Source: an uncultured Acidobacteriota bacterium (GTDB lineage Bacteria; Acidobacteriota; Vicinamibacteria; Vicinamibacterales; CAVVIG01). Taken from it: a DNA stretch of 64,000 nucleotides. The DNA lies in the NCBI GenBank assembly GCA_963837345.1, contig CAWIMX010000001.1:1539823-1603822 (forward strand). The letters run 5' to 3'. Of this stretch, positions 11,395 to 33,875 are shown piece by piece. The notes under the pieces were generated by a model. The model was not told the origin of the DNA. It saw only the letters and a list, made by a program, of their open reading frames with translations, and searched no databases. The first letter of the stretch is position 1. Every line of letters starts with the position of its first letter. Both the position numbers and the translations under genes were made by a program.

Positions 11395-11500
11395 AGCGCC
11401 ACGGAGGCACAGAGACAATGAACCACAGTGGCACTGGGACACGGAGGAGATCTTCTTCTCGGTGTCTCGGTGTCTCGGTGGTTGTGGATTGAAGATTCCG
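11395..11500. repeat. dispersed-repeat hairpin (CCACGGAGGCACAGAGACA facing GTGTCTCGGTGTCTCGGTGGTT)
   Basis: Forward and reverse copies of the same about 20-nt core form an imperfect inverted repeat in the intergenic gap. It belongs to the same family as 12620-14699 and 62823-62945. Confidence 0.7.
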
Positions 11501-12619: not shown

Positions 12620-12835
12620 GGCGCCAACCACGGAGCCACCGGGGAAGGAACCACAGAGGCACGGAGACACCAGGGGCGGAGCCACAGAGACAGGGAGCCA
12701 CTGGAGGACGGAACCACCGAGGCGCGGAGACAGAGACACTGGCGGACTTGAACCACAGGGGCACGGAGACACTGCGGGCGGAACCACCGAGGCGCCGGGC
12801 ACCGGGAGACGGAACAACAGAGGCAGAAGGACTCT
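12620..12835 (+). repeat. degenerate about 40-bp repeat array (5-6 copies), forward orientation (AACCACAGAGGCACGGAGACAC)
   Basis: Copies at about 12650, 12712, 12750, 12791 and 12822 are spaced about 40 nt apart. Orientation is opposite to the large array at 13321-14699. Confidence 0.65.
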
Positions 12836-12915
12836 CAGGGGCAATTTGCCGAGGCACGAACGCGCCGCAGCGACAGACCAACCGACACGACACACAAAGA
12901 TCGACGAACACGGGA

Positions 12916-13287
12916 TCAGAGAATTAGACGCCTGATCCCATCCCGAAGGACCGCCGAATTGAAGTTGATCAGCAGGCCCACGCGGTTCCGTGTAAGGCGC
13001 AGATACGTCAACACCTGCGCCTCGAACACAGGGGAGAGCATGGCTACGCTCTTAACCTCGACCAGCACCCGCCCCTCGACCAGCAGATCCACGCGATACG
13101 CGCCAAGAAGGTGTCCCTTGTAGTAAGCCGGAATGGACAGCTGTCGATCGTGTGAAATCCCTTGTTCCTGGAGCTCGATTGACAACGCCTGCTCGTACAG
13201 CGGCTCGAGAAGCCCCGGGCCGAGGCCCCGATGGACTTCAATCGCCGCCGCAATCACGCGCGAGGTCGTTGCGTTGACCGCCGTCAT
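12916..13287 (-). CDS. GxxExxY protein (PD-(D/E)XK nuclease superfamily, PDDEXK_3)
   Basis: GPGLLEPLYEQAL contains the GxxExxY motif, and VDLLVEGRVLVEVKS gives D...ExK. ATG 13287 is preferred. The ORF extension to 13320 (MNRPRGHEDAE) is encoded by a repeat copy. Confidence 0.85.
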   Translation of the reverse strand: MTAVNATTSRVIAAAIEVHRGLGPGLLEPLYEQALSIELQEQGISHDRQLSIPAYYKGHLLGAYRVDLLVEGRVLVEVKSVAMLSPVFEAQVLTYLRLTRNRVGLLINFNSAVLRDGIRRLIL

Positions 13288-13320
13288 CTCCGCGTCCTCG
13301 TGCCCTCGTGGTCTGTTCAT

Positions 13321-14699
13321 ATCCGAGCCCCGTGTCTCTGTGCCCAGTGGGTTTGTCGAGCCCGAGCCTCTGTGTCTCGGCGCCTTGATGGTTTGTCGAG
13401 CCCGAACCTCTGTGTCTCGGTGCCTCAGTGGTTTGTCGAGCCCGAGCCTCCGTGTCTCGATGCCTCAGTGGTTTGTCGGGCCCGAGCCTCTGTGTCTCGG
13501 TGCCTCAGTGGTTTGTCGAGCCCGAGCCTCCGTGTCTCGGTGCCTCAGTGGTTTGTCGAGCCCGAGCCTCTGTGTCTCGGTGCCTCAGTGGTTTGTCGAG
13601 CCCGAGGCTCCGTGTCTCGGTGCCTCAGTGGTTTGTCGGCCCGAGCCTCCGCGTCTCGGTGCCTCAGTGGTTTGTCGAGCCCGAGCCTCCGTGTCTCGGC
13701 GCCTTGATGGTTTGTCGGGCCCGAGCCTCTGTGTCTCGGCGCCTTGATGGTTTGTCGGGCCCGAGCCTCCGTGTCTCGGTGCCTCGGTGGTTTGTCGAGC
13801 CCGAGTCTCCGTGTCTCGATGCCTCAGTGGTTTGTCGAGCCCGAGTCTCCGTGTCTCGGTGCCTCGGTGGTTTGTCGAGCCCGAGCCTCTGTGTCTCGGT
13901 GCCTCAGTGGTTTGTCGAGCCCGAGCCTCCGTGTCTCGGTGCCTCAGTGGTTTGTCGAGCCCGAGCCTCCGTGTCTCGGCGCCTTGATGGTTTGTCGAGC
14001 CCGAGCCTCCGTGTCTCGGTGCCTCAGTGGTTTGTCGAGCCCGAGCCTCCGTGTCTCGGCGCCTTGATGGTTTGTCAAGCCCGAGCCTCCGTGTCTCGGT
14101 GCCTCAGTGGTTTGTCGAGCCCGAGCCTCCGTGTCTCGGTGCCTCGGTGGTTTGTCGAGCCCGAGCCTCCGTGTCTCGGCGCCTCAGTGGTTTGTCGAGC
14201 CCGAGCCTCCGTGTCTCGATGCCTCAGTGGTTTGTCGAGCCCGAGCCTCCGTGTCTCGGTGCCTTGATGGTTTGTCGAGCCCGAGCCTCTGTGTCTCGGC
14301 GCCTTGATGGTTTGTCGAGCCCGAGGCTCTGTGTCTCGGCGCCTCAGTGGTTTGTCGGCCCGAGCCTCTGTGTCTCGGTGCCTCAGTGGTTTGTCGAGCC
14401 CGAGCCTCCGTGTCTCGGCGCCTTGATGGTTTGTCGAGCCCGAGCCTCCGTGTCTCGGCGCCTTGATGGTTTGTCGAGCCCGAGCCTCCGTGTCTCGGCG
14501 CCTTGATGGTTTGTCGAGCCCGAGCCTCTGTGTCTCGGCGCCTCAGTGGTTTGTCGGGCCCGAGCCTCTGTGTCTCGGCGCCTTGATGGTTTGTCGAGCC
14601 CGAGCCTCGGTGCCTCAGTGGTTTGTCGAGCCCGAGCCTCCGTGTCTCGATGCCTCGGTGGTTTGTCGAGCCTGAGGCTCTGTGGCCTCAGTGGTTGGT
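13321..14699 (+). repeat. tandem array, about 34 copies of a 40-bp unit (GTGTCTCGGTGCCTCAGTGGTTTGTCGAGCCCGAGCCTCC)
   Basis: Visible 40-nt periodicity over about 1.38 kb. Copies differ only at a few fixed positions (cctc[c/t]gtg; cg[g/a][t/c]gcct[c/t][a/g][g/a]tgg), with occasional 39-nt units. No unique spacers. Confidence 0.95.
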
Positions 14700-17600
14700 T
14701 CAACGCCCGGGCCTTTGAGCCTCCGTGGCAAATACCCGAAGCGCCTCATCCCGAATCTCGCGTTCGACCAGCGGAAACGTTCCAAGAACGTGCTCGAATT
14801 CGGGCGCGCTCAGCCTGTACAGACCGGCCACCGCTGCCTGGAGCTGGCAGTACGCCGCCCTCTGTGGCCCGCGGGCGAGCAGCCGCGCCAGGCCGGCGAT
14901 GCGGCCGAGCGCCCGAGGCTCGGTGGCAGGTGTCGGCGCCGGCAGCGCCTGCACGACGGCCGTCGTCACGTGGGTGGTGACGCGCTGGCGCACGAAGTAG
15001 TTCACGACGAAGCTGTTCAGCAGGGCGCACAGCGCGTGCTGCCGCTGCACCGGCATCGGCGTCCTCAGGCAGAAGACGGTGTGCGTCGTCACGCACCCGG
15101 CGGGGAGCAGCGCCGCGATGAGGGTGAGGCGGTTGGTGGCGCCGGCCACGTCGCGGTAGGCAAGCCTGACGCGCTCGAACGGCCGCGCGCGGAGAAGGCG
15201 ACCTGCGGTCGACGGGCTGATGGCCTGCCGCGTTCGCTGCAGATCGACGGCGAAGGGCCCGATGTGCTTGCCTTCGACGATCGGGAGCCCTGAGCCCGAC
15301 GGCACGAAATGGCGGCGGTCGTCGGTCGCGTTCAGCTCGCGTCCGAATCGAGCGCCCCAGCCGTGCCTGCTGCCGAGCGGCGGGAACAGCGCCGCGGCCC
15401 GTTCAGCCAGCGAGACGTCCATCGCGGATCGAAGATCGGGAATGGCGAAGGTGTCTCCCGACAACCGGCCGAGCAACTCCATCGACAGCTGGACGGGAAA
15501 GTCGGGCGACCGGGAGGCGCCATCGCCGAGGCGCTCGAGCACGGCCGGATCCCGCTCGCCCAATCGGCAGGCGATCGCGTGCGTCGGCGAGCCAGCTGAG
15601 GCGGTGACGAGCATGAAGCGCACGCTTCGATGAATCGGGAAGACGCCGTCGCGGTTGTCGAAGCCTGCGATGGCGTCGATGCTGGCCCGTGCGAACAGCT
15701 TCTGGCGAAGGGCGGCGCTGCCGTGATCGATCGCGACGCCGGAGGGCAGCACCAGCCCGAGGCGTCCGCCGGGCCGCGTGAGGTCGAGGGCGCGCTCGGC
15801 GAACAACTGGTAGCGATTGGGGTGGCCGGTCGTCGTGGCCGTATAGACGCCGGACGATCGCGCGAATCGAACGAGCGGACCGCCGTCGAGCCGCGCGCGT
15901 CTGCGGTCCTCGGGCGATCCGGCGTCGCCACGGACCATGTCCCAGGGCGGGTTCCCCAGCACGGCGTCGAAGCCGGGCGCGGGGAGGCGTGTGCCGGCCG
16001 GTGAAAAGAATACCTCCGGGAATTCGATCTCCCAGTGCAGGAAACGACGTCGCGTCGCGATGGCGTCGGCGTGGCCGAGGTATGCGGCGGCGGTGCCATC
16101 GGGTAGCGCGCCCCGGGCGGCGAGCACAGCGTCGGTGAGTGCGCCAAAGGCTTCCGGCGGTACGGGCGTCTCACTGGTCGAGAACCACGCGGCGCACCAC
16201 AGATCGGCGACGCGTCGCCACCGCTCCCACACATGCTGGCGACGGTGCAGCGTGGCCAGCGTCCGCTCCTTCTCGCGCACCCGCTCGATCGTGTCGCCCG
16301 GGACATTCTCGAGCGCGAATCGGAGCGGCAGAGTCGCTTCGATGGCCGGCCTCGCCGCCGCCTCGTCGAACAGCCGGGGTGGGTCGGGCCCCCCCTGCCG
16401 GCGCTCGCGGCCGGGTCGAGGCGGCCGCCCGAGTGCCGACAGCCACGCGCCGACCAGGCTGTCGCCGGTTCGCAGGCGATGATCGAGGAACGTGAGCGGC
16501 CGATCCGCGGCGAGAGTGGTCAGCCACAGCGACAGCCTGGCCAGCTGCACCGCCATCGGGTTGATGTCCACGCCGTACAGGCAGCGCTCGGCAATGGTGC
16601 GTCGAATGGTCGCCCGCTCCGCGTCGCCGATATCGGCCGGCAGACAGCCGCCGGCGTCGACGAGCGCCCGCTCGTACTCGCGCGCCAGATAGCGGCAGGC
16701 GGCAACGAGAAACGCCCCGCTGCCCATGGCGGGATCGAGCACGCGCAAGCCGAGAATTCGCTCGGGCGCCGCGTGGCGGACGAGGGGTTCGAGCGTGCGG
16801 CGCACGATGTAGTCGGCGATGGGCTGTGGCGTGTAGAAGGTGCCGCTTGCCTTCCGGAGGCCCGAGCCGGCCTCGAGCGCGACCCGCCGCCCCTCGATCT
16901 TCGGCCGGTAGTCGAGGATGGTCTCGTACACGGCGCCAAGCTGTTCGACGCCGAGGTCGTGATATCCGATGCGTTCGCGCGCGGCGCGATTGGCCGCCGG
17001 ACGGGTGGAGAGGGCCAGAACGGTTCGCCGCGCCGCCTCGTCGTCCAGGTCGCGGCGTTCGGCCAGCGGCGTGTGCGAGGGCGCGAACAGGCGGCCGTTG
17101 AACGGCGTCACGCGGAGATCGCCGGCTCGGCAGCCCGCATGCGCGAGGCGCGACATTGCCTGAAGCGCATCCCAGAAGCCCGTGGCGGCGCGCGGACGCT
17201 CGGCCATGGCGCGCAGCGCCTCGACGCTGTAGCTGTTTCGGTAGACGGGATGCCACAGCGGCATGAGCCCCCGCGCTTCGGCGAACAGGAGGAAGAGGAG
17301 GCGATAGACGATCGTCAGCGATTGTTCGTACGCACGATCGAGTGCCGACCCGTCGACCGCGCGCCGACCGCGCACGGCGAGCGAGGTCGCCACGTCGGAG
17401 GCCGCTTGCAGTACGCCATGACGAAGCGATCGACAGACGCCCGACGCGTGGCGGTCGGACGCATCCACGAGGTCGTGGAGTGCGGTCCGCGGCGGAACGC
17501 CGCCGCCGGCGAGCATCGAGGCGCGCGTCAACCGCAGGAACGCAGCCAACGCCCGGTCGTCTTCGAACGCGGCGTCGAGGTCCCATTCGAAATGCCTTCG

Positions 17601-18014
17601 CGCGTACACGCGCGCGCCGTCCACGACTCGAAGCTGGCAGCCGTTGAACAGCACACACCACGGCGACGAGCGATCGAAGGCCTGGGCCACTGCCGATGTC
17701 CACCACGATTCGAGTGGCTCGCACCAGCCCACCACGAGCAGGGCCACTCGGTGCGTCGCCGTGGCCAGAGTCGCCGCAACGGCGCGCTCCGATTCGCCGA
17801 TGGCGCACGGCGCATCGAAGCCGAGCGCTTCGGCCAGCGGACCGGCCCCGACGTCCAGTATGGCGCGCAGGCCCGACGCGGGACCCAGCGTCTGGCATCG
17901 CTCGCGCCACGCGAGCAGCCGACGCCCGGCTTCGCGATGGCGCTCGTCGCCACCTGCCGGCGTTGTCGCCAGAAACCGTTCAGAGAGAAGGTCGCCGCTG
18001 AATCCGGGCAGCAT
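14700..18014 (-). CDS. Eco57I/PglX-like N6-adenine DNA methyltransferase, 1104 aa (type IIG / BREX / DISARM-DrmMI-like architecture)
   Basis: Motif I VLDPAMGSGAFLV, motif IV LGNPPWD. Helical N-domain LTIVYRLLFLLFAEARGL. TaqI-like C-terminal specificity region. ATG 18014 lies 4 nt after the helicase stop. The first 265 codons of the 1369-aa track ORF overlap the helicase and are rejected. Confidence 0.85.
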   Translation of the reverse strand: MLPGFSGDLLSERFLATTPAGGDERHREAGRRLLAWRERCQTLGPASGLRAILDVGAGPLAEALGFDAPCAIGESERAVAATLATATHRVALLVVGWCEPLESWWTSAVAQAFDRSSPWCVLFNGCQLRVVDGARVYARRHFEWDLDAAFEDDRALAAFLRLTRASMLAGGGVPPRTALHDLVDASDRHASGVCRSLRHGVLQAASDVATSLAVRGRRAVDGSALDRAYEQSLTIVYRLLFLLFAEARGLMPLWHPVYRNSYSVEALRAMAERPRAATGFWDALQAMSRLAHAGCRAGDLRVTPFNGRLFAPSHTPLAERRDLDDEAARRTVLALSTRPAANRAARERIGYHDLGVEQLGAVYETILDYRPKIEGRRVALEAGSGLRKASGTFYTPQPIADYIVRRTLEPLVRHAAPERILGLRVLDPAMGSGAFLVAACRYLAREYERALVDAGGCLPADIGDAERATIRRTIAERCLYGVDINPMAVQLARLSLWLTTLAADRPLTFLDHRLRTGDSLVGAWLSALGRPPRPGRERRQGGPDPPRLFDEAAARPAIEATLPLRFALENVPGDTIERVREKERTLATLHRRQHVWERWRRVADLWCAAWFSTSETPVPPEAFGALTDAVLAARGALPDGTAAAYLGHADAIATRRRFLHWEIEFPEVFFSPAGTRLPAPGFDAVLGNPPWDMVRGDAGSPEDRRRARLDGGPLVRFARSSGVYTATTTGHPNRYQLFAERALDLTRPGGRLGLVLPSGVAIDHGSAALRQKLFARASIDAIAGFDNRDGVFPIHRSVRFMLVTASAGSPTHAIACRLGERDPAVLERLGDGASRSPDFPVQLSMELLGRLSGDTFAIPDLRSAMDVSLAERAAALFPPLGSRHGWGARFGRELNATDDRRHFVPSGSGLPIVEGKHIGPFAVDLQRTRQAISPSTAGRLLRARPFERVRLAYRDVAGATNRLTLIAALLPAGCVTTHTVFCLRTPMPVQRQHALCALLNSFVVNYFVRQRVTTHVTTAVVQALPAPTPATEPRALGRIAGLARLLARGPQRAAYCQLQAAVAGLYRLSAPEFEHVLGTFPLVEREIRDEALRVFATEAQRPGR

Positions 18015-18018
18015 CGGA

Positions 18019-20448
18019 CTAGGGCAGGAGCACCAGCAGCAGCTCGAACGGCCCCGACCGCACGGACGCCATCGCCTCCAGACAGGCCAGCCGATCCGCC
18101 GCGTCGGTCTCGATTCCGCGGGCCCAGTCGCTTTCGCGCTCGCGCTCGCGCTCGGCGCGCCGCGAGAAGAGCTCGGGCTGGAAGGAGGAGCCGGCCGGCT
18201 GGGCTGCCAGCGCGATCCGACGGGTCCGGTCGATCGCGGCTCGAGTGAATGCCCGTTGCGCCTCGGCGGCCCGGGCCTGCCAATCGGCGGTCGCACGCTG
18301 GAGCAGATCCGTGACGTCGTCAGAGCGTCCCTCGAGGGCAGCCTCCAGCAATTTCGACGATCGTGGCCATGTCGCGACAGGATCCACGGCGAGCGGCACG
18401 ACCAGCGACTCCACGCGTCGGCCGGCGCCATCCTCGATCGATACCCGGAAGACGGCGAGCGCGCGGCGGCCGAGCCATTGGCGCGTGCGGCGGCGGGCGC
18501 GCGCCCAGGCGGGCGCCGCCGGTGCGGGAACGCTCCCGCCGGTTGGGTTGTGCTGAAGTCGGCGAACTGTTTCGAGCCGGGCGGCCTCAGTCGAGGCGTC
18601 GCGGGCGAGCGAAACCTGATTGACCGCGGCCTCGCCCGTGAGCGCGTCGTCCGGCGCATCCGCCCGCGCAGCCTCGGGCCGCAGCCCTGCGATGGCGACG
18701 CGCGCCAGCGTGACCTCGTCCTGTCCGTCGAGCGGATCAGCGGTGCCCAGGTCGAGCCGGGCGCGGGCGATCCGGGATCGGAGATGCGCCACCAGCCGCG
18801 CTTCTCCACTGTCGGCCGCGATCAGATGAAAGACGTGCACCGTCCGCCGCTGTCCAATCCGGTCGACCCGGCCGATGCGCTGTTCGAGGCGCACCGGATT
18901 CCACGGCAGCTCGAGGTTCACGACGATCCGGCATCGCTCCTGTAGGTTCAGCCCTTCGGCCGCAGCATCGGTGGCGAGGAGCAGGCCTTGGCGGCCGCTC
19001 GTGAACTCGGCCACGACGCTGGTGCGCTCGGCGCGCGTCAGGCCGCCGTGCAGCACCGCGGCGCGGCGCGCGAGCCGCGTCAGCACGTATTCGAGCGTGT
19101 CCCGATACTCCGTGAAGACGATCGCCGGCTCGCGGGTACGGCGAAGCAGGCGAACGAGCGCGGACAGCTTGGAGCTCTCGCCCGACGCATCGAGCGCCGC
19201 CGCCGACAGGCGCTCGAGCAGGCTCCGCTCGCGCGCGGTGTTGCCCAGATCCAACGCGCCGGGCCACGCCGGCGCGCCGTCGTCGGTCGTGATCTCGCCG
19301 TCGCGATCGGTCAACGGAAGGAACAGCTGGCCGACCGGTGGTGCGCCAGGCGCCCCTTCGGCCAGCGCTTCCAGGCGACGGCCGACCGACTGATGCAAGG
19401 CAAAGGGACTCGACAGCGCTCTTTTGTGGAGCACGGCCAGGCCGAGCCATCGCTCCCGCAGATCGCCGCGGTGCGCCCGGCGGACGGCCCGGCCGAACGC
19501 GTCGAGCAGCGACAGCATGCGTCGTTCGGCCGCGCCCGTGGCGACGGGAAGCTGATGAATGCGGCGGCGGATGCCCAGCGGCACGTCGTGCCGCGTCCGT
19601 CGAAACACCAGCAGTGGATCGCCAGTCGATCCCACACCGCACAGCTCGCGAAACTGCTGGCGATCACCGCTGTGGGGCGTGGCCGACAGCAGCAGGACGT
19701 AGGGCGCCCGGCCCGCCAGCCTCGTTACCGCGCGCCGGCGATCGGTATCGCCGGCGACGGCGTGCGCTTCATCTACGATCACCACGTCCCATCGGCTCAG
19801 CGCGACCAGCGGAAGAACGTGAGCCTGCTTCACGTAGTCGATCGACGCGATCGCGATTGGCACGGTGGTCCATGGGTTGGCGGAGCGCGCGAGGCTGGCC
19901 GACCGCCGTCGCAGCGCGGCGCCATCCAGAACGACGGCGTCCAGCTGGAATCGCGCCGCGAGCTCTCCGGCCCACTGATCACGCAAACCCGCCGGGGCGA
20001 GAATCAGCACGCGGGCGGCCGCGCCGCGAGCCATCAGCTCCACCGTGACCAGGGCCGCCTGAATCGTCTTCCCCAGACCCACACCATCGGCGAGCAGGAC
20101 GCGGCATCCGAGCCCGCGAGCCACCGCCAGAGCAGGTTCGAGCTGGTGTGGCCGAAGCTCGATCCGTGCGCGATGTCCTGCCTTGAGCGAGCCTGGCGGC
20201 GCGCTTTCAACCAGCCACTGCCGGCACGCCCGAGCCCAGACCCGAGAGCGCGCATGTCTCAGGCCTGTCCGGCGCCCAACGGACTCGACGATGTCGAACG
20301 GTGTGAGCACCCGCTGTTGCACGCCCAGATTGGTGGCGCCCACGCCCACGAGCGTGAGCTCCGAACACGCTGCATGCGCGCGACGGTCGACGATGCGCCA
20401 GCGCTGCCGGCGGACGCGCACCAGATCCCCGGGGTGTCGAATCTGCAT
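18019..20448 (-). CDS. SNF2/RapA-like superfamily-2 helicase, 809 aa
   Basis: Motif I LLADGVGLGKTIQA, motif II VVIVDEAHAV, motif III LLLSATPHSG, motif VI LEQRIGRVDRIGQ. N-terminal GDLVRVRRQRWRIVD resembles a RapA-type Tudor-like domain. About 250-aa uncharacterised C-terminal tail. Confidence 0.85.
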   Translation of the reverse strand: MQIRHPGDLVRVRRQRWRIVDRRAHAACSELTLVGVGATNLGVQQRVLTPFDIVESVGRRTGLRHARSRVWARACRQWLVESAPPGSLKAGHRARIELRPHQLEPALAVARGLGCRVLLADGVGLGKTIQAALVTVELMARGAAARVLILAPAGLRDQWAGELAARFQLDAVVLDGAALRRRSASLARSANPWTTVPIAIASIDYVKQAHVLPLVALSRWDVVIVDEAHAVAGDTDRRRAVTRLAGRAPYVLLLSATPHSGDRQQFRELCGVGSTGDPLLVFRRTRHDVPLGIRRRIHQLPVATGAAERRMLSLLDAFGRAVRRAHRGDLRERWLGLAVLHKRALSSPFALHQSVGRRLEALAEGAPGAPPVGQLFLPLTDRDGEITTDDGAPAWPGALDLGNTARERSLLERLSAAALDASGESSKLSALVRLLRRTREPAIVFTEYRDTLEYVLTRLARRAAVLHGGLTRAERTSVVAEFTSGRQGLLLATDAAAEGLNLQERCRIVVNLELPWNPVRLEQRIGRVDRIGQRRTVHVFHLIAADSGEARLVAHLRSRIARARLDLGTADPLDGQDEVTLARVAIAGLRPEAARADAPDDALTGEAAVNQVSLARDASTEAARLETVRRLQHNPTGGSVPAPAAPAWARARRRTRQWLGRRALAVFRVSIEDGAGRRVESLVVPLAVDPVATWPRSSKLLEAALEGRSDDVTDLLQRATADWQARAAEAQRAFTRAAIDRTRRIALAAQPAGSSFQPELFSRRAERERERESDWARGIETDAADRLACLEAMASVRSGPFELLLVLLP

Positions 20449-20582
20449 CGCTCTCGCGCCCGGTCCGACGCAATAGCTGCTGTGCGCCTGCTGGACTTCG
20501 ACGAATGGCTAGCGATTCCGGCGCTCGAGGATCGGGCGCCGCGAAGAGTGGCAAGGGCCGTGCCCGGACGTCGCGGCCGCGG

Positions 20583-23181: not shown

Positions 23182-25054
23182 TCATCTTACCAGAGGATCT
23201 TCCGGCGCTTCGTTCTCCTCCTTTTCGGTGGCTTCCTTCAGCTTGTCGAGAAGCGCCGCGAAACCGCACTGCGCGGGATCGAAGAGGCCCCACTCGTCCT
23301 GAACCGGCGGGCGGGGCGCCTCGGCCTTCTTTCGCGCTTTGGCCCGCTCGCGGCGCCGCGTCTCCTTCGCTGCCTCGGCCGATCCCGCGTCGGGTGGATC
23401 CGGGGACGCGGCGGGAGCGGCCGGCGCCGGCGATGCGGCGGGCGCCAGTGTCGCCGCGGCCGGGGCTGCAGGCGGCACAGCCGTGGGAACGGCCGCCGCG
23501 ACGGGCGCGGCGGAAACCGGCACGGGCGCGGCACGCGTCGACCGAACGGGTGGCGGAAGCGCAGAGGGTGCCGGCGGGGCGGCCGCCGCAACAGGCGCAA
23601 CCACGGGCGCCGCCGGTGCGAAGACGGCTGGTGCCGCCGGCGGTGGCACGACGACCGGCCGCGGCGTGACCGGCGGACGCGCGACCCGGACCGGCCGCGG
23701 CACCACGATGGGCGCGAGCGGCTCGAGCGGCTTGGGGCGTTCGGCGGCTCTCAGATGCTCCACGTCGCGCCGCAGGCGCTCGAGGATCTCCTTCCACTCG
23801 GGCACGCGGCTTTCGCTCGCCGCCGGCGTAGCCGCTCGTGTTGCGCGCGGTGCGGCCACCGTCGGGGCTTGCACGGGCGGGGCGGCCACCGTCGGAGCCT
23901 GAACGGGCGGAGCGGCCACCGTCGGGGCCTGCACGGGAGGCGCCACCGTCGGCGGCGGCGCGACCGTCATGCCGCCTTCGAGCTTCGGCCACAGGCGAAG
24001 CAGGCCCGAGTGCATCGGGATCCACAACTCCGAGTGCTTGCGGCGCGCCACGGGCGCCTCGGCCGGTTGAGCGGGGATCGGCTCGACCGATTCCGCCGGC
24101 GCGACAGACGGCTCGATCGCCACGAGCGGAGCCGGAGCCTCCTCGGGCTCGTCGAGCGTGTCCGTCGCCTCCGCGACCTCGCCGGCAACCGAGACCTCCT
24201 CCAGAGCGTCGATGCCCTCCACCGGCGCTGGCGAGGCGATCGAATCGACGGCGGCCAGGGCGTCGGCCGCTTCATGCGACGCGCTCGCTTCCTGCTCCTG
24301 GATCGCGTGGACGGCTTCGACGGCCTGGGCCGGTTCGACAGCGTCGACCATCACCGCCTCGTCGAGCGTCTCGACGGCTGCCAGCGACTCGTACGGCGCG
24401 GCTTCCTCGATTCGGCGTGGTGAGGTCGACGGGATCGGGCGCGACCACGTCGAGTGCGTCGGCGAGCTCGACCGGCGGCACCGCGTCGGTCGCTGCGACC
24501 AGCGGCAGATCGTCGAAGTCGGCATCCGGACGGTCGGCGACCGGCTCGTCGGCGGTCAGGACGACATCGCTCTCCGTGTCGTCGGCAGTCGCCGCAGCGG
24601 CGTCGTTGTGCCAGCCCTTGAGCTCGAGGAGCTCGGCGACTTCTGCGCGCTCGGCGGCGGCGCGTTCGAGATAGGACGCAATCTGGTCCACGAACACCGC
24701 CGGATCGCAGCCGCCGTTGTTCGATTCGACCGAGCGATTGCGGCGGAGCGCCGAGAGCATGCCGCGCTTGTGGGGCTTGCGCTGCGACGCCGACCCGAGC
24801 ACCGGAATCGTGAGCGTCTGCACGTGGGCCGCGCTCGTGCCCAGCTGCCGGAGCCAGTCGGCCAACGCCGCATCGTCTTTGGGCGAGAGCAGCGCCGTCG
24901 TCAGGATCAGATCGGGCACGCGGCCGGCGAGCCGGGGCAGCGCCTGTTCGGCCGAGGCTTCGAGCACCACGTCGGCATCCAGACGTCCCTGGACCGAGCT
25001 GGCGAGGGTGGCTGCCTGCCGGCGGTCGGGTTCGATTGCCAGGATGAGAGCCAT
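23182..25054 (-). pseudogene. CheY-like (pseudo-receiver) and acidic/Pro-rich protein, split by one +1 frameshift near 24409-24413
   Basis: Track ORFs 24272..25054 and 23182..24525 join as ...PVDLTTP|IEEAAPYESLAAVETLDEAV if one base of GAATC (coding strand) is removed. The N-terminal receiver fold has T where the phospho-Asp is expected (PDLILTTALLS). Confidence 0.5.
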
Positions 25055-25936: not shown

Positions 25937-26053
25937 TTCGAGGGATTGCGCCCGATTGTGGTCATGGCCGCGTCCGCCGTCCCCTCGGATGGCGGGCGCG
26001 GCGCTTCAACCGGACGGACTGACAGAGATGACGTGGGCATGCGGGGGGTTGAC

Positions 26054-26227
26054 ATGAGCATCGTGGCCTTGGCCGTCCGGCGGCTCGTCGCCCGTGAAGA
26101 CGGCCAGGATCTTCTGGAGTACGGCGTTCTCATGGTCCTGATTGCCATCGTCGCCATCGTCAGCGTGACGTACGTCGGCAACACGATTCACACGGTGCTC
26201 TGGGACTACGTCGTTGCGAGTTTCTAG
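26054..26227 (+). CDS. flp: Flp family type IVb pilin (second paralog)
   Basis: MSIVALAVRRLVAREDGQDLLEYGVLMVLIAIVAIV, 57 aa. ATG 26054 after GCGGGGGG. Confidence 0.85.
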   Translation: MSIVALAVRRLVAREDGQDLLEYGVLMVLIAIVAIVSVTYVGNTIHTVLWDYVVASF

Positions 26228-26723
26228 CGCCATCGAGCTGGCGGCGGTGACGGGCGGTGGAGGCACCGGGGCCGTCATCGATTTGTACACGCGCCGCGTG
26301 CCGAATCTGCTGACGCTCGGCCTGGCCGGAGCCGGCCTGGCCTTCGCCGCGCTGCGGATCAGCACCATCGGCCTGGGCGGCGCGGTTGCGGGATTTGGAC
26401 TCGGATTCGTGCTGATGCTGCCGGGACATCTGCTGGGCGCGACCGGCGCCGGCGACGTCAAGCTGCTCGCCGCCGTCGGCGCGTGGCTCGGTCCGGCGCG
26501 AACGGGTCAGGCGTTCTTCTACACCGCCATCGCGGGCGGCGTGCTGGCGGTGGTCGTCGCAATTCGGCGGCGGCGGCTGCGCGAAACGATGGAGCGGACG
26601 GCCGCGCTCGTCCGGTCGGGCGGAGGGAACGTGACCGAGATCGAGGCGCCCACCTCCGACAATCGCTTCGCATACGCACCGGCGATTGCCGTCGGCGCGT
26701 TCATCGCCGCGCTCGGGGTGTGA
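26214..26723 (+). CDS. cpaA: A24 family prepilin peptidase CpaA/TadV
   Basis: VIDLYTRRVPN...GAGDVKLLAAVGAWLG carries the two catalytic Asp contexts. TTG start is uncertain. Confidence 0.85.
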   Translation: MRVSSAIELAAVTGGGGTGAVIDLYTRRVPNLLTLGLAGAGLAFAALRISTIGLGGAVAGFGLGFVLMLPGHLLGATGAGDVKLLAAVGAWLGPARTGQAFFYTAIAGGVLAVVVAIRRRRLRETMERTAALVRSGGGNVTEIEAPTSDNRFAYAPAIAVGAFIAALGV

Positions 26724-26788
26724 CGGTGGCGACCGAGTTGCGACTGGGGACTGACTGCCGACTGCCGACTTGCGACTGAGGGATTGAT

Positions 26789-27649
26789 ATGGCTCGCATC
26801 CGCATCATGCTCGTGCTTGCGCTGGCGCTCACCGCGGGCGGCGTGTTCGCCTACGGCACCTACGCCTACGTGCAGCAGAAAGGTTCGGCGGTCCAGACCG
26901 TGTCGATTCCGACCCGCCCGGTCGTTGTCGCCGCGACTGACCTCGACGTGGGCGCCGAACTGTCTCGCGACAACATCCGCATGATCGACTGGCCGGCGAA
27001 CGCCATGCCGGCCAACGCGATCGGCAGCGCCGACGAGGTGATCGGCCGCGGGTTGATCATGCCCGTCGTGCAGAACGAACCGATTCTGCCGATGAAGCTC
27101 GCCTCGCCCGAGGAGGGCAGCGGGCTGCCGCCGATCATTCCGCCCGGGCTCCGCGCGATGTCGGTGCGGGTGAACGAGGTGATCGGCGTGGCCGGCTATG
27201 TGCTCCCCGGCACGCGCGTCGACGTCGTCACGACGCTCAGCCCGACGCAGAATGCGTCGGATACGACGTCGAAGGTGATCCTGACCAACGTGCAGGTGCT
27301 GGCCGCAGGCACCCGCTTCGAGCAGGACACCGAAAAGGACAAACCGATGCCGGTGAGCGTGGTCACGCTGCTCGTCGATCCCGATCAGGCCGAGCGCCTG
27401 ACGCTGGCGAGCACCGAGGGCAAGATCCAGCTCGCGCTTCGCAATCCCATGGACAAGAACACGCCTGAGACCCGCGGCATCAAGCCCGCGGCCCTGATGG
27501 GGACGCCGTCCACGACGCCGCGGGCGCTGCCGCGGCGGGGACAGGCGGCGCCGCCGGTGGCCGAAGTGCGTCCACCGGAGAAGAAGCCACTCACCGTTGA
27601 AATGATCCGCGGCGACAAGCGTGAAGAGAGCGTCGTCCCACAGGATTGA
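26789..27649 (+). CDS. cpaB: Flp pilus assembly protein CpaB/RcpC
   Basis: 286 aa. N-terminal TM, SAF-like VVVAATDLDVGAELSRDNI, RcpC domain. Confidence 0.9.
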   Translation: MARIRIMLVLALALTAGGVFAYGTYAYVQQKGSAVQTVSIPTRPVVVAATDLDVGAELSRDNIRMIDWPANAMPANAIGSADEVIGRGLIMPVVQNEPILPMKLASPEEGSGLPPIIPPGLRAMSVRVNEVIGVAGYVLPGTRVDVVTTLSPTQNASDTTSKVILTNVQVLAAGTRFEQDTEKDKPMPVSVVTLLVDPDQAERLTLASTEGKIQLALRNPMDKNTPETRGIKPAALMGTPSTTPRALPRRGQAAPPVAEVRPPEKKPLTVEMIRGDKREESVVPQD

Positions 27650-27653
27650 GGCC

Positions 27654-29443
27654 ATGACCCGAAAAATTCTGATCTTCGTGATTGCCGTCATCTGGCCGCA
27701 CATCGTGATCGCGGCCGACGAGGCCGCGGCCGTGCGGCTCCTCGTGGGCCGATTCGACCGTGGTCGACGTCGGCTCGCCCATCACGCGCGTCTCGCTCAC
27801 GAGCGCCGACGTGGCCGACGCGCTGGTTACGGCCCCCGACGAGCTTCTGGTGAACGGCAAGACGCCCGGCAGCGTGTCGATGTTCGTGTGGAGCAAGTCG
27901 GGCACGATCCGGCGCTACGAGGTGATCGTGCAGCGCGACCTGTCGCGCCTCGCCGAGCAGGTCAAGACGTTCTTCCCTGGCGAGCAGATCGCCGTCGAAG
28001 GCAACGGCCGCAACGTCGTCCTGTCGGGGATGGTCTCGAGCAAGGCCGTCATCGAGAATGTCGTCAACCTCGCGGCCGGCTACGTCGAGAAGCGCGACGA
28101 GGTCGTGACCCTGCTGCAGCTCCAGGAAGACGCGCCGAGCAACCAGGTGCTGCTCCGCGTGCGCTTCGCCGAGGTCAGCCGCAGCGCCCTGACCGAGCTG
28201 GGCGCCTCGTTCTTCACGAGCCCGACCGGGGTCAAGAACACCATCGGCCGCGTCACGACGCAGCAGTTCCCGGCGCCCGGCTACGACGGGCTGAAGTACA
28301 CGAAGGACAGCAGCGACTTCGGATTCCGACGTCACCAGCGCCGAGGGGCAGTTCACGTTCAGCGACTTCCTGAACCTGTTCCTGTTCAGTGAGAAGTACG
28401 ACCTTGGCGCGATGATTCGAGTGCTGCAGACGAAGGGCATGTTCCAGAGCCTCGCCGAGCCGAACCTCGTCGCGGAGAGCGGCAAGGAAGCGAGCTTCCT
28501 GGCGGGTGGCGAGGTGCCCATTCCCATCGCGCAAGGAACCGGCGGCAACGTGGCGATCAGCGTCCAGTACAAGGAGTTCGGCATCCGCCTGAACTTCACG
28601 CCCGTCGTCAACGGCGACCGGATCCACCTGAAGGTCCGGCCCGAAGTGAGCTCGCTCGATTTCAACAACGCGGTCGTCCTGCAGGGATTCCGGATCCCGG
28701 CGCTCAGCACCCGGCGCACCGAGACCGAACTCGAGCTGCGCAACGGCCAGACGTTCGCCATCGCCGGTCTGCTCAACAGCACCGTCATGGAGTCGCTCGA
28801 AAAAGTGCCCGGGCTGGGCGACATCCCGATTCTCGGGCTGCTGTTCCGCAGCAAGGCCGCGCAGAAGCAGCGGACCGAGCTGGTCGTGATGATCACGCCG
28901 GAGATTCTGCCGAACAACTCGCCGGGCGTCACGCCGGACCTGCCGCGCATGCCGCAGCCGTTCCTGCCGCCATACCCGGAGAATCAGTCGCAGCCGATGC
29001 CAGGCCCGGCGTTCGAGTCGCGGCCGTCGGGCAGCGCGAGCGCGCAGCCGATGATCACGCCGGACGCGACCCGGCCCGCGCCGGCGGCGTCGGCCGCCTC
29101 GGCGGCCGCGGCCGTGTCGGCGCTGGCGCCGTCCAGCCCGAAGATCATCATGCCGACGGCGACCAGCGCCGCTGATCAGCCGACGGCATCGCCCGACTCG
29201 GCAGTCGTGCCGCCGGAGCCGGAGGTCGCGCCGGCCGCGGAGCCGGCTCTCTCGCCCGCTCCCGTTGCAGCGAGCGATTCGACGCCGGTCACGCCGGAGG
29301 AATTCGGCGCGAGCACCAGTTTGGAACCGTTGCCGTCTTCCGCGTCGGCCGGGCCGGCCAGTTTCATCCGGCCGCTCACCCCGGAAGAGCTCGAGCGGAT
29401 TGAGAAGGCCCGCCAGGAAGAGGCGGCCGCGCGCGGTCGATAA
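27654..29443 (+). pseudogene. cpaC: Flp pilus secretin CpaC/RcpA, interrupted by two +1 frameshifts (27751-27755 and 28322-28326)
   Basis: Signal peptide MTRKILIFVIAVIWPHIVIAA (frame 0), BON/N-domains (frame 1, 27760..28392) and secretin domain LAEPNLVAESGKEASFLAGGEVP...GLGDIPILGLLFRS (frame 2, 28412..29443). Removing one T from each GATTC gives VGRSTVVDVGSP and DFGSDVTSAEGQ. About 190-aa P/A/S-rich tail. Confidence 0.85.
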
Positions 29444-29450
29444 GATCACC

Positions 29451-30626
29451 ATGGCACATCTCGTCGGGTTGATCGTCAGCGAGGACGAAGACTTTCGGAA
29501 GCAGGTCGGACGGCTGCTGCGCCTGGGCTCGCTGCCCGTGAGCGTCATCGACGACCGTCAGGGCCGCGACGTGTCGTCGGCGGACGTCATGATTGTCGAC
29601 GTGCGCCGCGACGCGACCTCCGCCATGGGCGTGATCGAACGGCTCCGCGCCGCGTCGGCGACGGCCGGGATTTTCGCCGTCGCGTCGGAGGCGGATCCCA
29701 ATCTCATCCTGCAGGCGATGCGGGCCGGCGCCAACGAGTTCTTCACCTGGCCGCCGCAGGACGAAACCTTTCAGGGCGCGATTCGACGATCGGCGGCCCG
29801 GCGCGAGACGGCACACGGCGGATCGCCAGCCGCCACCACGCTGGTGTTCTTCGGCGCGAAGGGCGGTGCCGGCACCACGACCGTGGCCGTGAATTGCGGC
29901 GTCGAGCTGGCCCGTCTCAGCAAGCGCGCGACGGTCATCATCGACCTCAAGCCCGGTCTCGGCGAAGTCGCGCTCTTCCTGGGCGTCCGGCCGCGGTTCA
30001 GCGTCCTCGACGCGATCGACAACCTGCACCGCCTCGATCGCGAGTTCATGCGCGAGCTGGTCGTGAAGCACAAGTCCGGCCTCGAGATTCTGGCCGGCTC
30101 CGATCAGTTCGATCGCCCGGGCGCCAACGACGGCGGCGCGCTCGAGGAGCTGTTCCGCCTGCTGACGCGGCAGTACGACTACATCCTCGTCGACGCCGGC
30201 AGCCAGATCAACTCGTGCACCGTGCCGGCGCTGTACACGGCCGATACGATCTTTCTGGTGGCCAATCCCGACGTGCCCTCGGTGCGCAACGCGCAGCGGC
30301 TGCTCGACCGCGTGCGCCAGATCGGCGCGGGCGCCGAACGCGCGCGTCTGCTCCTCAACCGCGCCGCCGAGCCGTACCCGATTCCGCCCAAGCAGATCGA
30401 AGCCGCGGTCGGGCATCCGATTCATCACACGTTCCCGAGCGACTACAAGACCGTCTCGAGCGCGCTCAACTCGGGCGTGCCCCTGGCGCTGGCGGGCGAC
30501 TCGGAAATCGCCACACAGTTCGATCGCTTCACCCGCTCGATCCTGGACCCCTCGGCCGTCGAACCGACGGCGCCGGAAGCCAAGAAGAAGGTGCTCGGCC
30601 TCGAACGTCTCGCGTCCATCTGGTAG
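29451..30626 (+). CDS. cpaE: CpaE/TadZ: receiver-like domain plus MinD/ParA-type ATPase
   Basis: MAHLVGLIVSEDEDF... (REC-like), deviant Walker A FFGAKGGAGTTTVAVN. Confidence 0.85.
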   Translation: MAHLVGLIVSEDEDFRKQVGRLLRLGSLPVSVIDDRQGRDVSSADVMIVDVRRDATSAMGVIERLRAASATAGIFAVASEADPNLILQAMRAGANEFFTWPPQDETFQGAIRRSAARRETAHGGSPAATTLVFFGAKGGAGTTTVAVNCGVELARLSKRATVIIDLKPGLGEVALFLGVRPRFSVLDAIDNLHRLDREFMRELVVKHKSGLEILAGSDQFDRPGANDGGALEELFRLLTRQYDYILVDAGSQINSCTVPALYTADTIFLVANPDVPSVRNAQRLLDRVRQIGAGAERARLLLNRAAEPYPIPPKQIEAAVGHPIHHTFPSDYKTVSSALNSGVPLALAGDSEIATQFDRFTRSILDPSAVEPTAPEAKKKVLGLERLASIW

Positions 30627-30632
30627 CCGACC

Positions 30633-32953: not shown

Positions 32954-32956
32954 ATC

Positions 32957-33868: not shown

Positions 33869-33875
33869 CACGCCC

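What the first reader, a model, noticed from the sequence alone, without database searches (positions are those of the whole stretch)
14700..20448. Translationally coupled SNF2 helicase and 1104-aa Eco57I/PglX-like N6-adenine methyltransferase: a two-gene, DISARM/BREX-reminiscent module lacking the other core genes
The helicase stop and the MTase ATG are 4 nt apart.

The MTase has motif I, an NPPW motif, a PglX/type-IIG-like helical N-domain and a TaqI-like target-recognition C-terminus. I see no convincing PD-(D/E)XK or other nuclease motif in its about 260-aa N-terminal region. The helicase has a RapA-like N-terminal domain and a 250-aa uncharacterised tail.

SNF2 plus adenine MTase is the DrmD/DrmMI pairing of class 1 DISARM. 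However, DrmA, DrmB and DrmC are absent, as are the BREX genes PglZ, BrxC and BrxL. Downstream there is instead a 1.4-kb repeat array and then a PD-(D/E)XK-family gene.

This could be a minimal or degenerate defence module, or an epigenetic (orphan) methylation system using a remodeller.
Basis: partly seen in the sequence, partly recalled or inferred. Interest (0 to 1): 0.7.

Follow-up and report, generated by a model that had tools for sequence, protein, structure and literature searches.

The report
Lineage-fixed SNF2 helicase–adenine methylase operon
This is a real, intact two-gene operon (a RapA/DrmD-like SNF2 motor coupled to a nuclease-dead DrmMI/type-IIG-like adenine methyltransferase) that is not a broken phage-defence locus: it sits at the same chromosomal site across a large clade of soil Acidobacteriota, so it looks like a domesticated, restriction-free, ATP-coupled DNA-methylation module.

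Summary
An 809-aa SNF2 helicase (18019-20448, minus strand) ends 4 nt before the ATG of a 1104-aa N6-adenine methyltransferase (14700-18014, minus strand).

- **Relation to known systems.** Both genes are remote homologues (about 33-34% identity over the shared domains) of the DrmD/DrmMI pair of class 1 DISARM. That pair is also the BrxHII/PglX-like pair of BREX-3 and ARMADA. Both proteins fall below NCBIfam's curated cut-offs. They are shorter than DrmD/DrmMI and have their own end domains.
- **Missing partners.** No DrmA/B/C, PglZ, BrxC or YprA partner is present in the window or in any syntenic relative.
- **Fixed location.** The pair lies in a housekeeping gene order (…HU-QueF-Smr-…-M14 peptidase-HEL-MT-…-TauE-rhodanese-DinB-DUF2461-Aldedh). 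Relatives at 40-69% identity, all named ones Acidobacteriota (Vicinamibacterales, Luteitalea), share that order.
- **Mode of evolution.** Divergence of the pair tracks that of its neighbour gene. All catalytic motifs are invariant. dN/dS is 0.13-0.20. The target-recognition domain is almost as conserved as the catalytic core.
- **Mobility.** No relative was found on viral contigs; plasmid homologues are at most 32.5% identical.
- **Downstream features.** The repeat array and the PD-(D/E)XK gene form a separate GxxExxY cassette bracketed by REP-like inverted repeats. It is present, absent or decayed independently of the pair.

Best reading: a domesticated, restriction-free SNF2-coupled methylation module. 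It is a new variant of a known kind, and its function is untested.

The parts
18019..20448 (-). SNF2-family ATPase/translocase gene, 809 aa. It has three parts: a Tudor-like N-domain (aa 1-92, nt 20173-20448), a Swi2/Snf2 core (aa 93-575, nt 18724-20172), and a fast-evolving alpha+beta/coiled-coil tail (aa 576-809, nt 18022-18723).
   Evidence: ORF and translation. Pfam SNF2-rel_dom and Helicase_C. PADLOC DrmD 3.9e-86. NCBIfam DrmD 323 bits, below the 610 cut-off. hhalign to Kribbella DrmD over aa 3-580 at 34% identity. AF2 pLDDT 81 with RapA as best PDB match. Motifs invariant in 30 homologues.
18015..18018 (-). 4-nt junction (tccg) between the helicase TAG and the methyltransferase ATG, implying tight translational and operon coupling.
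   Evidence: Relatives have a 2-5 nt gap or an overlap.
14700..18014 (-). N6-adenine DNA methyltransferase gene, 1104 aa. It has four parts: a REase-like but catalytically empty N-domain (aa 1-150, nt 17565-18014), a helical domain shared with DrmMI (aa 151-380, nt 16875-17564), a gamma-class MTase core with motif I and NPPW (aa 381-800, nt 15615-16874), and a C-terminal target-recognition region (aa 801-1104, nt 14703-15614).
20449..20582 (-). 134-nt intergenic region between the M14 peptidase stop and the helicase start. It is the probable promoter region of the operon; relatives have a similar gap of about 120-130 nt.
   Evidence: No sigma-70 consensus was found.
13323..14684 (-). 40-bp x 34 tandem array. 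It is not part of the module. It is an expanded copy of the left REP-like repeat that flanks the GxxExxY cassette, and it fills the whole gap between the MTase stop and the PDDEXK_3 start.
12916..13320 (-). GxxExxY / PDDEXK_3 small nuclease gene (134 aa, D...EVK motif intact). It is a separate cassette and not a core partner of the pair.
   Evidence: Pfam E 3.8e-39. TIGR04256. No PADLOC hit. Variable presence, and bracketing by inverted repeats.
12629..12825 (+). Right-hand block of REP-like repeats, inverted relative to the array, closing the GxxExxY cassette.

Best explanation
**What it is (well supported).** This is a self-contained two-gene operon that is vertically inherited in a clade of Acidobacteriota (Vicinamibacterales/Luteitalea-type). 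It descends from the same helicase-methylase module that DISARM class 1 (DrmD-DrmMI), BREX type 3 (BrxHII-PglXI) and ARMADA (ArmA-ArmB) use. It has lost, or never had, every effector and sensor partner, and it has become a fixed chromosomal resident.

**How it most likely works (inferred).**
- The methyltransferase carries its own target-recognition domain. It N6-methylates adenine in one fixed, probably asymmetric, motif across the chromosome.
- The co-translated SNF2 motor binds the methyltransferase, plausibly through the fast-evolving helicase tail and the dead-nuclease N-domain of the methyltransferase.
- The motor uses ATP-driven dsDNA translocation or remodelling to deliver or license methylation.
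- No DNA is cut, because neither protein has a live nuclease.
- The methyl mark then serves the host as an epigenetic or 'self' mark rather than arming a linked restriction activity.

**Shown versus inferred.** Shown: gene structure, homology, intact motifs, purifying selection, fixed synteny, absence of partners. Inferred: complex formation, ATP-coupled methylation, and the absence of restriction.
For: **Coupling and intact motifs.**

**Homology to genuine DISARM-1 proteins, limited to the shared domains.**
- Helicase aa 3-580 versus Kribbella DrmD: 34% identity.
- Methyltransferase aa 143-761 versus Kribbella DrmMI: 33% identity.
- That Kribbella locus has DrmA downstream.

**No partner genes.** No PADLOC hit in 10 neighbours. 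Pfam on neighbours and on the largest ORFs of the window shows only housekeeping genes.

**Fixed synteny.**
- L002, L003, L004, L087, L088, L089 and L170 share the gene order around the pair, and the window has the same order.
- 41 of 54 contigs anchored on the neighbouring M14 peptidase gene carry the pair directly downstream.
- Divergence of HEL and MT correlates with divergence of M14 (Spearman 0.77 and 0.78, n=22).

**Purifying selection in every domain, including the TRD.** Whole-gene omega is 0.13-0.20 and TRD omega is 0.15-0.21.

**TRD nearly as conserved as the catalytic core.**
- Mean pairwise identity is 0.64 for the TRD and 0.69 for the core.
- The TRD/core identity ratio is 0.94. 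In long-form DrmMI-like genes from defence islands it is 0.51-0.97.

**No live nuclease.**

**Not on mobile elements.** No relative on viral contigs; plasmid homologues are at most 32.5% identical.

**Precedent for SNF2-dependent methylation.** Dnmt5 needs ATP hydrolysis by its SNF2 domain to methylate DNA (bioRxiv 10.1101/2020.01.05.895227).
Against: - No methylation, ATPase or interaction data exist for this family.
- Every characterised relative of the module (DISARM-1, ARMADA, BREX-3) is an anti-phage system. In ARMADA the SNF2 Walker motifs are required for defence (10.1101/2025.09.15.676423), so a defence role cannot be excluded.
- The pair evolves faster than core neighbours: HEL is 56% and MT 65% identical, against HU 98% and QueF 84% in the same comparison. 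The helicase tail is 0.33 and the MTase N-domain 0.51 in mean pairwise identity, which resembles conflict-driven evolution.
- The pair is not universal next to M14. About 10 of 54 contigs have another downstream context.
- The TRD-conservation contrast with defence-island homologues is only moderate.
Confidence: 0.45

Rival explanations
1. The pair is an autonomous, nuclease-free defence system, a minimal BREX/DISARM-like module. The methylase marks self DNA. The SNF2 motor, guided by the methylase's TRD, loads on unmethylated incoming DNA and blocks its replication or injection by translocation, without cutting it.
For: The best HMM hits are defence proteins: DrmD, BrxHII, DrmMI and type IIG. 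SNF2 plus PglX-like pairs are required for defence in ARMADA and contribute to it in DISARM-1. The end domains evolve fast. BREX shows that methylation-dependent exclusion does not need a classical nuclease (PMC12839542).
Against: - In every described system the pair needs further core genes (YprA/DrmAB, BrxC/PglZ, DUF499). None is present here.
- The locus is fixed and syntenic, is not in a defence island, and is not found on mobile elements.
- The TRD is conserved and under purifying selection. In ARMADA, by contrast, armB is the most variable gene.
Confidence: 0.25
2. The locus is a three-gene, split Type ISP-like ATP-dependent restriction-modification system. Its parts are the SNF2 translocase, the MTase-TRD, and the small GxxExxY PD-(D/E)XK protein acting as the nuclease subunit.
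For: - The PDDEXK_3 gene has an intact D...EVK motif.
- It lies directly after the MTase, and overlaps its stop codon, in L002, L004, L013 and L087.
- Its divergence (53-62%) parallels that of the pair.
- No other copy occurs in the 64-kb window or in the fetched loci.
Against: - The gene is absent in L003 and in most M14-anchored loci, where only 4 of about 22 loci with a complete MTase have it. It is an internally deleted remnant in L088. The pair stays intact in all of these.
- It is always bracketed by inverted REP-like repeats, which also occur alone elsewhere in the window (11399-11481 and 62851-62910). It therefore behaves as an independent cassette.
- In the window it is separated from the MTase by a 1.4-kb array.
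- It has no PADLOC hit.
Confidence: 0.08
3. The pair is a decaying remnant of a complete DISARM, ARMADA or BREX locus and has no function of its own.
For: The gene set is only a subset of known systems. The proteins are shorter than DrmD and DrmMI (809 versus about 1040 aa, and 1104 versus about 1360 aa).
Against: - dN/dS is 0.13-0.20.
- Catalytic motifs are invariant across 30-33 homologues at about 50-60% identity.
- More than 150 clusters at 50% identity have the same length and architecture.
- No DISARM or BREX gene fragments lie nearby in any relative.
Confidence: 0.03
4. The helicase is this clade's RapA-type RNA-polymerase recycling factor, a housekeeping transcription protein. The methylase is an unrelated passenger that happens to be co-transcribed.
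For: RapA is the best structural match, E 5e-26, aligned over more than 900 columns. The chromosomal context is housekeeping.
Against: - The sequence is closer to DrmD (323 bits) than to RapA (174 bits against a cut-off of 576).
- The strict adjacency at 2-5 nt, or overlap, with the MTase holds in every relative. HEL and MT divergences correlate at rho 0.83, which argues for a functional pair.
Confidence: 0.07

Closest known systems
DrmD-DrmMI pair of class 1 DISARM (Ofir et al. 2018; Serratia system, bioRxiv 10.1101/2021.12.28.474362)
   Same: - The gene order is the same: an SNF2 helicase followed directly by an N6-adenine MTase.
- The Tudor-like N-domain and Swi2/Snf2 core of the helicase are homologous (34% identity).
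- The helical domain and catalytic core of the MTase are homologous (33% identity).
- These are the best PADLOC hits.
   Different: - No DrmA, DrmB or DrmC is present.
- The helicase tail, the MTase N-domain and the TRD do not align.
- The proteins are about 230 and 260 aa shorter.
- The helicase falls below the NCBIfam DrmD cut-off.
- The locus is a fixed chromosomal site rather than a defence island.
ArmA-ArmB of ARMADA I/II and BrxHII-PglXI of BREX type 3 and the BR systems (10.1101/2025.09.15.676423; PMC12839542)
   Same: - They share a RapA-like architecture: Tudor, Swi2/Snf2, then a degenerate REase-like alpha+beta tail.
- That helicase is paired with an adenine MTase.
- The MTase lacks a nuclease.
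   Different: - Those systems always include a YprA-like helicase-nuclease, or BrxC/DUF499 ATPase plus PglZ or a nuclease.
- They ride on mobile islands.
- Their MTase is the variable gene.
- Here none of these applies.
Type ISP (LlaGI/LlaBIII) and Type IIG/IIL (MmeI, BpuSI) restriction-modification enzymes
   Same: The MTase and TRD lie in one polypeptide of the Eco57I/MmeI_Mtase type. The association with an SF2 translocase mirrors a Type ISP enzyme split into two genes.
   Different: The N-terminal REase-like fold has no catalytic residues. No Mrr or PD-(D/E)XK active site is present in either protein. No significant fold match to BpuSI or MmeI was found.
E. coli RapA (HepA)
   Same: RapA is the best solved-structure match for the whole helicase (8spg, E 5e-26).
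   Different: Identity is only 17%. The NCBIfam score is 174 bits against a cut-off of 576. The window's helicase has a single N-terminal domain rather than a tandem one, and it is coupled to an MTase rather than to RNA polymerase.
Eukaryotic SNF2-dependent DNA methylation (Dnmt5 SNF2-DNMT fusion; DDM1/HELLS)
   Same: The functional logic is the same: an SNF2 ATPase obligatorily paired with a DNA methyltransferase and no nuclease (10.1101/2020.01.05.895227). DDM1 and ISWI structures are among the fold matches.
   Different: The MTase class differs (cytosine-5 versus N6-adenine). One is a fusion and the other is two genes. No homology exists beyond the generic SNF2 core. This is an analogy only.

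Membership tests
DISARM class 1 | DrmA (helicase), DrmB (DUF1998) and DrmC (PLD) core genes in the locus. PADLOC requires all five genes (PMC9252829). | tested here: not met
   No PADLOC hit in 10 neighbouring ORFs. Pfam on neighbours and on the 10 largest other ORFs shows only housekeeping genes. The same holds in syntenic relatives.
DISARM class 1 | DrmD-type SNF2 helicase | tested here: inconclusive
   PADLOC DrmD E 3.9e-86 over aa 4-574. hhalign gives 34% identity to Kribbella DrmD. But the NCBIfam equivalog score is 323 bits against a cut-off of 610, and the C-terminal third does not align.
DISARM class 1 | DrmMI-type adenine methyltransferase | tested here: inconclusive
   PADLOC DrmMI E 4.9e-106 for aa 384-756. 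hhalign gives 33% identity over aa 143-761. The N-domain and TRD are unrelated.
BREX (types 1-6) / BR systems | PglZ plus BrxC/DUF499 ATPase (and BrxL, BrxA, BrxB) alongside the PglX-type methylase | tested here: not met
   None was found. All NCBIfam PglX models score at most 47 bits against cut-offs of 400-900.
ARMADA | YprA-like helicase-nuclease ArmC next to the SNF2-MTase pair | tested here: not met
   The window has no ORF longer than 860 aa other than the pair. No DrmA-type or YprA-type hit was found.
Type IIG / Type ISP restriction-modification enzyme | Active nuclease domain (PD-(D/E)XK or Mrr) in the same polypeptide or system | tested here: not met
   The N-domain has REase-like topology, but aa 70-95 carry no conserved D or ExK. 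No Pfam nuclease domain was found. No significant PDB fold hit was found.
Type IIG / Type ISP restriction-modification enzyme | Gamma-class N6A MTase core with motif I and NPPW, plus a C-terminal TRD in one chain | tested here: met
   Pfam Eco57I, N6_Mtase and MmeI_Mtase. The motifs are invariant. TaqI_C matches only at E 0.09.
Orphan (solitary) DNA methyltransferase with a host function | No cognate restriction gene, persistence at one locus across a clade, and conserved specificity domain | tested here: met
   No nuclease partner is present. Synteny is conserved. TRD identity is 0.64 against 0.69 for the core, and TRD omega is 0.15-0.21.
Orphan (solitary) DNA methyltransferase with a host function | Demonstrated genome-wide methylation of a motif and a regulatory or replication phenotype | not testable with these tools
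   This needs methylome data and genetics.
RapA/HepA | Equivalog-level sequence match and RNA-polymerase binding | tested here: not met
   NCBIfam RapA scores 174 bits against a cut-off of 576. Only the fold is similar. RNAP binding cannot be tested here.

The most novel reading that the evidence does not exclude
The pair is a bacterial counterpart of eukaryotic SNF2-dependent DNA methylation (Dnmt5, DDM1/HELLS). On this reading it is an ancient, vertically inherited adenine-methylation system that needs ATP hydrolysis by a dedicated SNF2 motor, and that serves chromosome biology rather than immunity. Such roles could include epigenetic inheritance, replication/repair strand marking, or gene regulation on HU-compacted DNA. 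It would have been domesticated from a DISARM/BREX-type defence module in the ancestor of Vicinamibacteria-type Acidobacteriota.
Probability: 0.2. Interest if true: 0.8.

Novelty: new variant of a known kind. Interest (0 to 1): 0.55.

Why it matters
- **An open question about the SNF2 motor.** The SNF2-plus-PglX-like-methylase pair is the shared but least understood sub-module of BREX-3, DISARM-1, ARMADA and the BR systems. What the motor does for the methylase is unknown.
- **A minimal model.** Here nature supplies the pair stripped of all other components, intact and under selection, in one of the most abundant soil bacterial lineages. That makes it a two-protein model for testing helicase-methylase coupling.
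- **A possible case of domestication.** If the pair acts for the host, it would be a clear case of a defence module domesticated into a lineage-wide epigenetic system. It would also be a prokaryotic parallel to SNF2-dependent methylation in eukaryotes.
- **An annotation consequence.** Tools that label isolated DrmD/DrmMI hits as partial DISARM would misread thousands of Acidobacteriota genomes.

Tried and rejected
2. **Hidden DISARM/BREX genes in the window.** Pfam and PADLOC on the neighbours and on all large ORFs found none.
3. **The PDDEXK_3 gene as a third subunit.** Rejected as a core part, because it is variably present, REP-bracketed and decayed in L088.
4. **Carriage on a mobile element.** The viral-contig scan found no relative. 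Plasmid tblastn found only homologues at 32.5% identity or less.
5. **Occurrence outside Acidobacteriota.** The single 'Betaproteobacteria' MAG hit has the Acidobacteriota synteny and is probably misbinned.
6. **Guessing the target motif.** The MTase gives a weak Alw26I/Eco31I/Esp3I-family hit (88 bits against a cut-off of 353). GAGAC occurs 35 times in the array. Outside the array it is not skewed (104 observed, about 122 expected). No inference is possible.
7. **Rfam and promoter/terminator scans of the region.** Nothing was found.
8. **Measuring universality across species genomes.** Prevalence in the clade is therefore estimated only from M14-anchored metagenome contigs.
9. **Long-form pairs.** Pairs at about 30% identity in Streptomyces, Actinomadura, Phyllobacterium and Caldimonas sit in defence islands. 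Only the Kribbella locus showed DrmA within reach. They served as a contrast group and were not resolved further.
Full report
**1. The observation**

The window is about 69% G+C, so long spurious ORFs abound. I used codon-position GC and homologue starts to fix the genes.

The helicase ORF is 18019..20448 on the minus strand (809 aa, ATG start). Its TAG stop is followed by four bases (tccg) and then by the ATG at 18014 of a 1104-aa ORF that ends at 14700. Homologues of both proteins begin at the same residues, so these are the real starts.

Pfam finds SNF2-rel_dom and Helicase_C in the first protein, and Eco57I, N6_Mtase and MmeI_Mtase in the second. The following motifs are invariant in 30 and 33 homologues respectively:
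- helicase: Walker A (GLGKT), DEAH, and motif VI;
- methyltransferase: motif I (DPAMGSGAF) and NPPW.

**2. What the two proteins are related to**

The best PADLOC hits are DrmD (3.9e-86) and DrmMI (4.9e-106). BrxHI/II, HmaA, DpdE and type IIG models follow.

I compared the pair with a genuine class 1 DISARM locus, L037 from Kribbella, which has DrmA directly downstream.
- The helicase family aligns with DrmD over aa 3-580 at 34% identity. This covers the Tudor-like N-domain and the Swi2/Snf2 core, but not the C-terminal tail.
- The methylase family aligns with DrmMI over aa 143-761 at 33% identity. This covers the helical domain and the catalytic core, but not the first 140 residues or the C-terminal recognition region.

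Neither protein reaches a curated NCBIfam cut-off. DrmD scores 323 bits against 610, RapA 174 against 576, and the best MTase model (the Alw26I family) 88 against 353.

The AF2 model of the helicase (pLDDT 81, pTM 0.80) is most similar to E. coli RapA (E 5e-26). This matches the published description of BrxHII, DrmD and ArmA as RapA-like proteins: Tudor domain, Swi2/Snf2 core, then a degenerate REase and an alpha+beta tail (PMC12839542; 10.1101/2025.09.15.676423).

The AF2 model of MTase aa 1-380 (pLDDT 82) has an alpha-beta-beta-beta-alpha-beta core at aa 49-132, followed by a helical domain. The strands that would carry D...(D/E)xK hold no conserved acidic residue or lysine. No PDB fold or sequence match is significant. 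The fold looks like a dead restriction-endonuclease domain.

**3. Context: not a defence island and not a remnant**

Ten neighbouring ORFs give no PADLOC hit. By Pfam they include an M14 peptidase, TauE, a rhodanese, an aldehyde dehydrogenase, a Flp-pilus protein and PDDEXK_3; four have no Pfam family. Nine of the ten largest remaining ORFs of the window are metabolic or regulatory, and one has no Pfam family. Apart from the pair, no ORF exceeds 860 aa, so DrmA, BrxC and YprA-type genes are absent.

The decisive result is synteny.
- Helicase homologues at 50-59% identity, from long soil-metagenome contigs, lie in the same gene order. The order is (sigma54 regulator-radical SAM-SBP-histidine kinase-HU-QueF-Smr)-[Tad pilus cluster in some]-M14 peptidase-HEL-MT-[GxxExxY]-DUF1634/TauE-rhodanese-DinB-DUF2461-Aldedh.
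- The window has exactly this order.
- More distant loci with organism names are Vicinamibacterales, Luteitalea and unclassified Acidobacteriota. They keep the HEL (about 800 aa) plus MT (about 1100 aa) architecture, and some keep TauE downstream.
- The one hit labelled Betaproteobacteria has the Acidobacteriota synteny and is probably misbinned.

I then anchored a search on the neighbouring M14 peptidase gene in metagenome contigs.
- 41 of 54 contigs with at least 800 bp downstream carry HEL (and MT where the contig is long enough) after M14.
- About three more end inside insertions that, in other contigs, lie between M14 and HEL.
- About ten have a different downstream context.

Across 22 loci, the divergence of HEL and MT from the window copy correlates with that of M14 (Spearman 0.77 and 0.78). 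HEL and MT correlate with each other at 0.83. This is the pattern of vertical co-inheritance. The caveat is that all distances are measured to a single reference.

No relative was found on IMG/VR viral contigs, and plasmid homologues are at most 32.5% identical.

**4. Selection and specificity**

For the closest available pairs, Nei-Gojobori dN/dS is 0.20 for the helicase and 0.13-0.19 for the methylase. Every domain is below 0.4, including the recognition domain at 0.15-0.21.

Mean pairwise identity within the methylase family:

| Region | Identity |
|---|---|
| catalytic core | 0.69 |
| helical domain | 0.69 |
| C-terminal recognition region | 0.64 |
| N-domain | 0.51 |

In the helicase the cores are 0.66-0.67 and the tail is 0.33.

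As a control, I took long-form DrmMI-like genes from DISARM or defence-island loci. Their TRD/core identity ratio is 0.51-0.97, against a mean of 0.94 (minimum 0.78) here. The contrast points the expected way but is moderate.

An exhaustive HMMER search found more than 150 clusters at 50% identity of the short (about 770-870 aa) helicase form, aligned end to end. The family is therefore large, old and functional. The 'degenerate remnant' reading is rejected.

**5. The downstream array and PD-(D/E)XK gene**

The 134-aa gene at 12916..13320 is a GxxExxY/PDDEXK_3 protein with an intact D...EVK motif.

In relatives it sits immediately after the MTase, and often overlaps its stop codon. This at first suggested a third subunit. 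Three observations argue against that.
- It is always bracketed by inverted copies of a heptamer-type repeat (CCACNGAGRCACNGAG ... CTCNGTGYCTCNGTGG).
- It is missing cleanly in L003. In L088 it is reduced to an internally deleted stub, still bracketed by the repeats. It is present in only 4 of about 22 M14-anchored loci with a complete MTase.
- The same palindromic repeat occurs on its own in other intergenic regions of the window, at 11399-11481 and 62851-62910.

It is therefore an independent REP-flanked cassette that landed at the 3' end of the MTase gene. The last codons of the MTase (…ATEAQR…) are in fact encoded by the left repeat.

In this window the left repeat has expanded into the 34 x 40-bp array (13323-14684), which exactly fills the gap between the MTase stop and the PDDEXK_3 start. 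A smaller expansion is visible in L005.

**6. How it most likely works**

The following are shown:
- a tightly coupled operon;
- an active-looking SNF2 ATPase;
- an active-looking gamma-class N6-adenine MTase with its own conserved recognition domain;
- two dead nuclease-like folds and no live nuclease;
- no partner genes;
- vertical inheritance at a fixed housekeeping locus.

The following are inferred:
- the two proteins form a complex;
- the methylase marks one fixed motif genome-wide;
- the motor's ATP-driven translocation or remodelling is coupled to that methylation;
- nothing is cleaved.

The fast-evolving helicase tail and the MTase N-domain are the obvious candidates for the interface, or for sensing. 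I put this domesticated, restriction-free methylation module at 0.45. Its rivals are:

| Rival explanation | Confidence |
|---|---|
| autonomous nuclease-free defence (BREX-like exclusion) | 0.25 |
| split Type ISP-like R-M using the GxxExxY nuclease | 0.08 |
| RapA-type transcription factor with a passenger methylase | 0.07 |
| decaying remnant | 0.03 |

The eukaryotic precedent is Dnmt5, whose SNF2 domain must hydrolyse ATP for methylation (10.1101/2020.01.05.895227), together with DDM1/HELLS. It shows that such coupling is mechanistically plausible, but it is an analogy only.

**7. Comparison with known systems, and novelty**

The pair works like, and descends from, the DrmD-DrmMI / BrxHII-PglXI / ArmA-ArmB sub-module. 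It is not a member of DISARM, BREX, BR or ARMADA, because their defining partner genes were tested for and are absent. It is not a Type IIG or ISP enzyme, because it has no active nuclease.

I found no description of a stand-alone, lineage-fixed version in the papers searched.

I rate it a new variant of a known kind, with interest 0.55. It is not categorically new, but it is a natural minimal system for an open mechanistic question and a candidate example of domestication of a defence module.

**8. Limits**

- There are no functional data.
- The organism was inferred only from named homologues.
- The target motif is unknown. The weak Alw26I-family similarity and the GAGAC-rich array allow no inference.

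Noticed in passing
window 12629-14684; also 11399-11481 and 62851-62910; L002, L004, L005, L012, L013, L087, L088, L089 downstream of the MTase: The GxxExxY/PDDEXK_3 gene is always bracketed by inverted copies of a REP-like heptamer-type repeat (CCACNGAGRCACNGAG). The same repeat forms stand-alone palindromes in other intergenic regions. L088 keeps the brackets around an internally deleted gene stub, and L003 has neither. This resembles the RAYT/REP relationship and may mean that GxxExxY nucleases are the cognate enzymes of these repeats.
   Followed up: partly
window 13323-14684: The 34 x 40-bp tandem array is an expansion of the cassette's left repeat. It comes in two unit variants (…CCACTGAGGCACCGAGACAC… and …CCATCAAGGCGCCGAGACAC…). 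The MTase's last codons (ATEAQRPGR*) lie in repeat-derived sequence. L005 shows a smaller expansion of about three units.
   Followed up: partly
window about 26000-36200 versus L003, L088, L089, L170: In the window and in L002, a Tad/Flp pilus cluster (RcpC/CpaB, TadZ-like ATPase, TadE and others) lies between Smr and the M14 peptidase gene. In several relatives Smr is followed directly by M14 or by the helicase. The pilus cluster is therefore a variable insertion in an otherwise conserved gene order.
   Followed up: no
L170 (GCA_050257855.1, JBLMXQ010000006.1): A contig from a MAG labelled Betaproteobacteria has the full Acidobacteriota synteny (SBP-HK-HU-QueF-Smr-HEL-MT-…-NrfD-molybdopterin). 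It is probably misbinned.
   Followed up: partly
L024, L025, L031, L032 (Streptomyces aureus, Actinomadura logoneensis, Phyllobacterium sp., Caldimonas manganoxidans): Long-form DrmD-like (about 1040 aa) plus DrmMI-like (1340-1830 aa) pairs sit among other defence genes (PD-T4-6 kinase, type I MTase, DrmMII-like C5 MTase, PifA). The genes directly downstream give no DrmA hit. These could be ARMADA-type or other undescribed arrangements.
   Followed up: partly
window 23847-23952: A 30-bp tandem repeat (3.6 copies, 84% matches) lies in the region between the M14 peptidase gene and the pilus genes. ORFs on both strands there have no Pfam or PADLOC hit.
   Followed up: no
L003, L005, L006, L088, L089, L170; window 36238-37329: HU, QueF and a small Smr-domain (nicking endonuclease-like) gene form a conserved trio upstream of the pair. 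In relatives that lack M14, Smr is the immediate upstream neighbour of the helicase. No functional link was tested.
   Followed up: no
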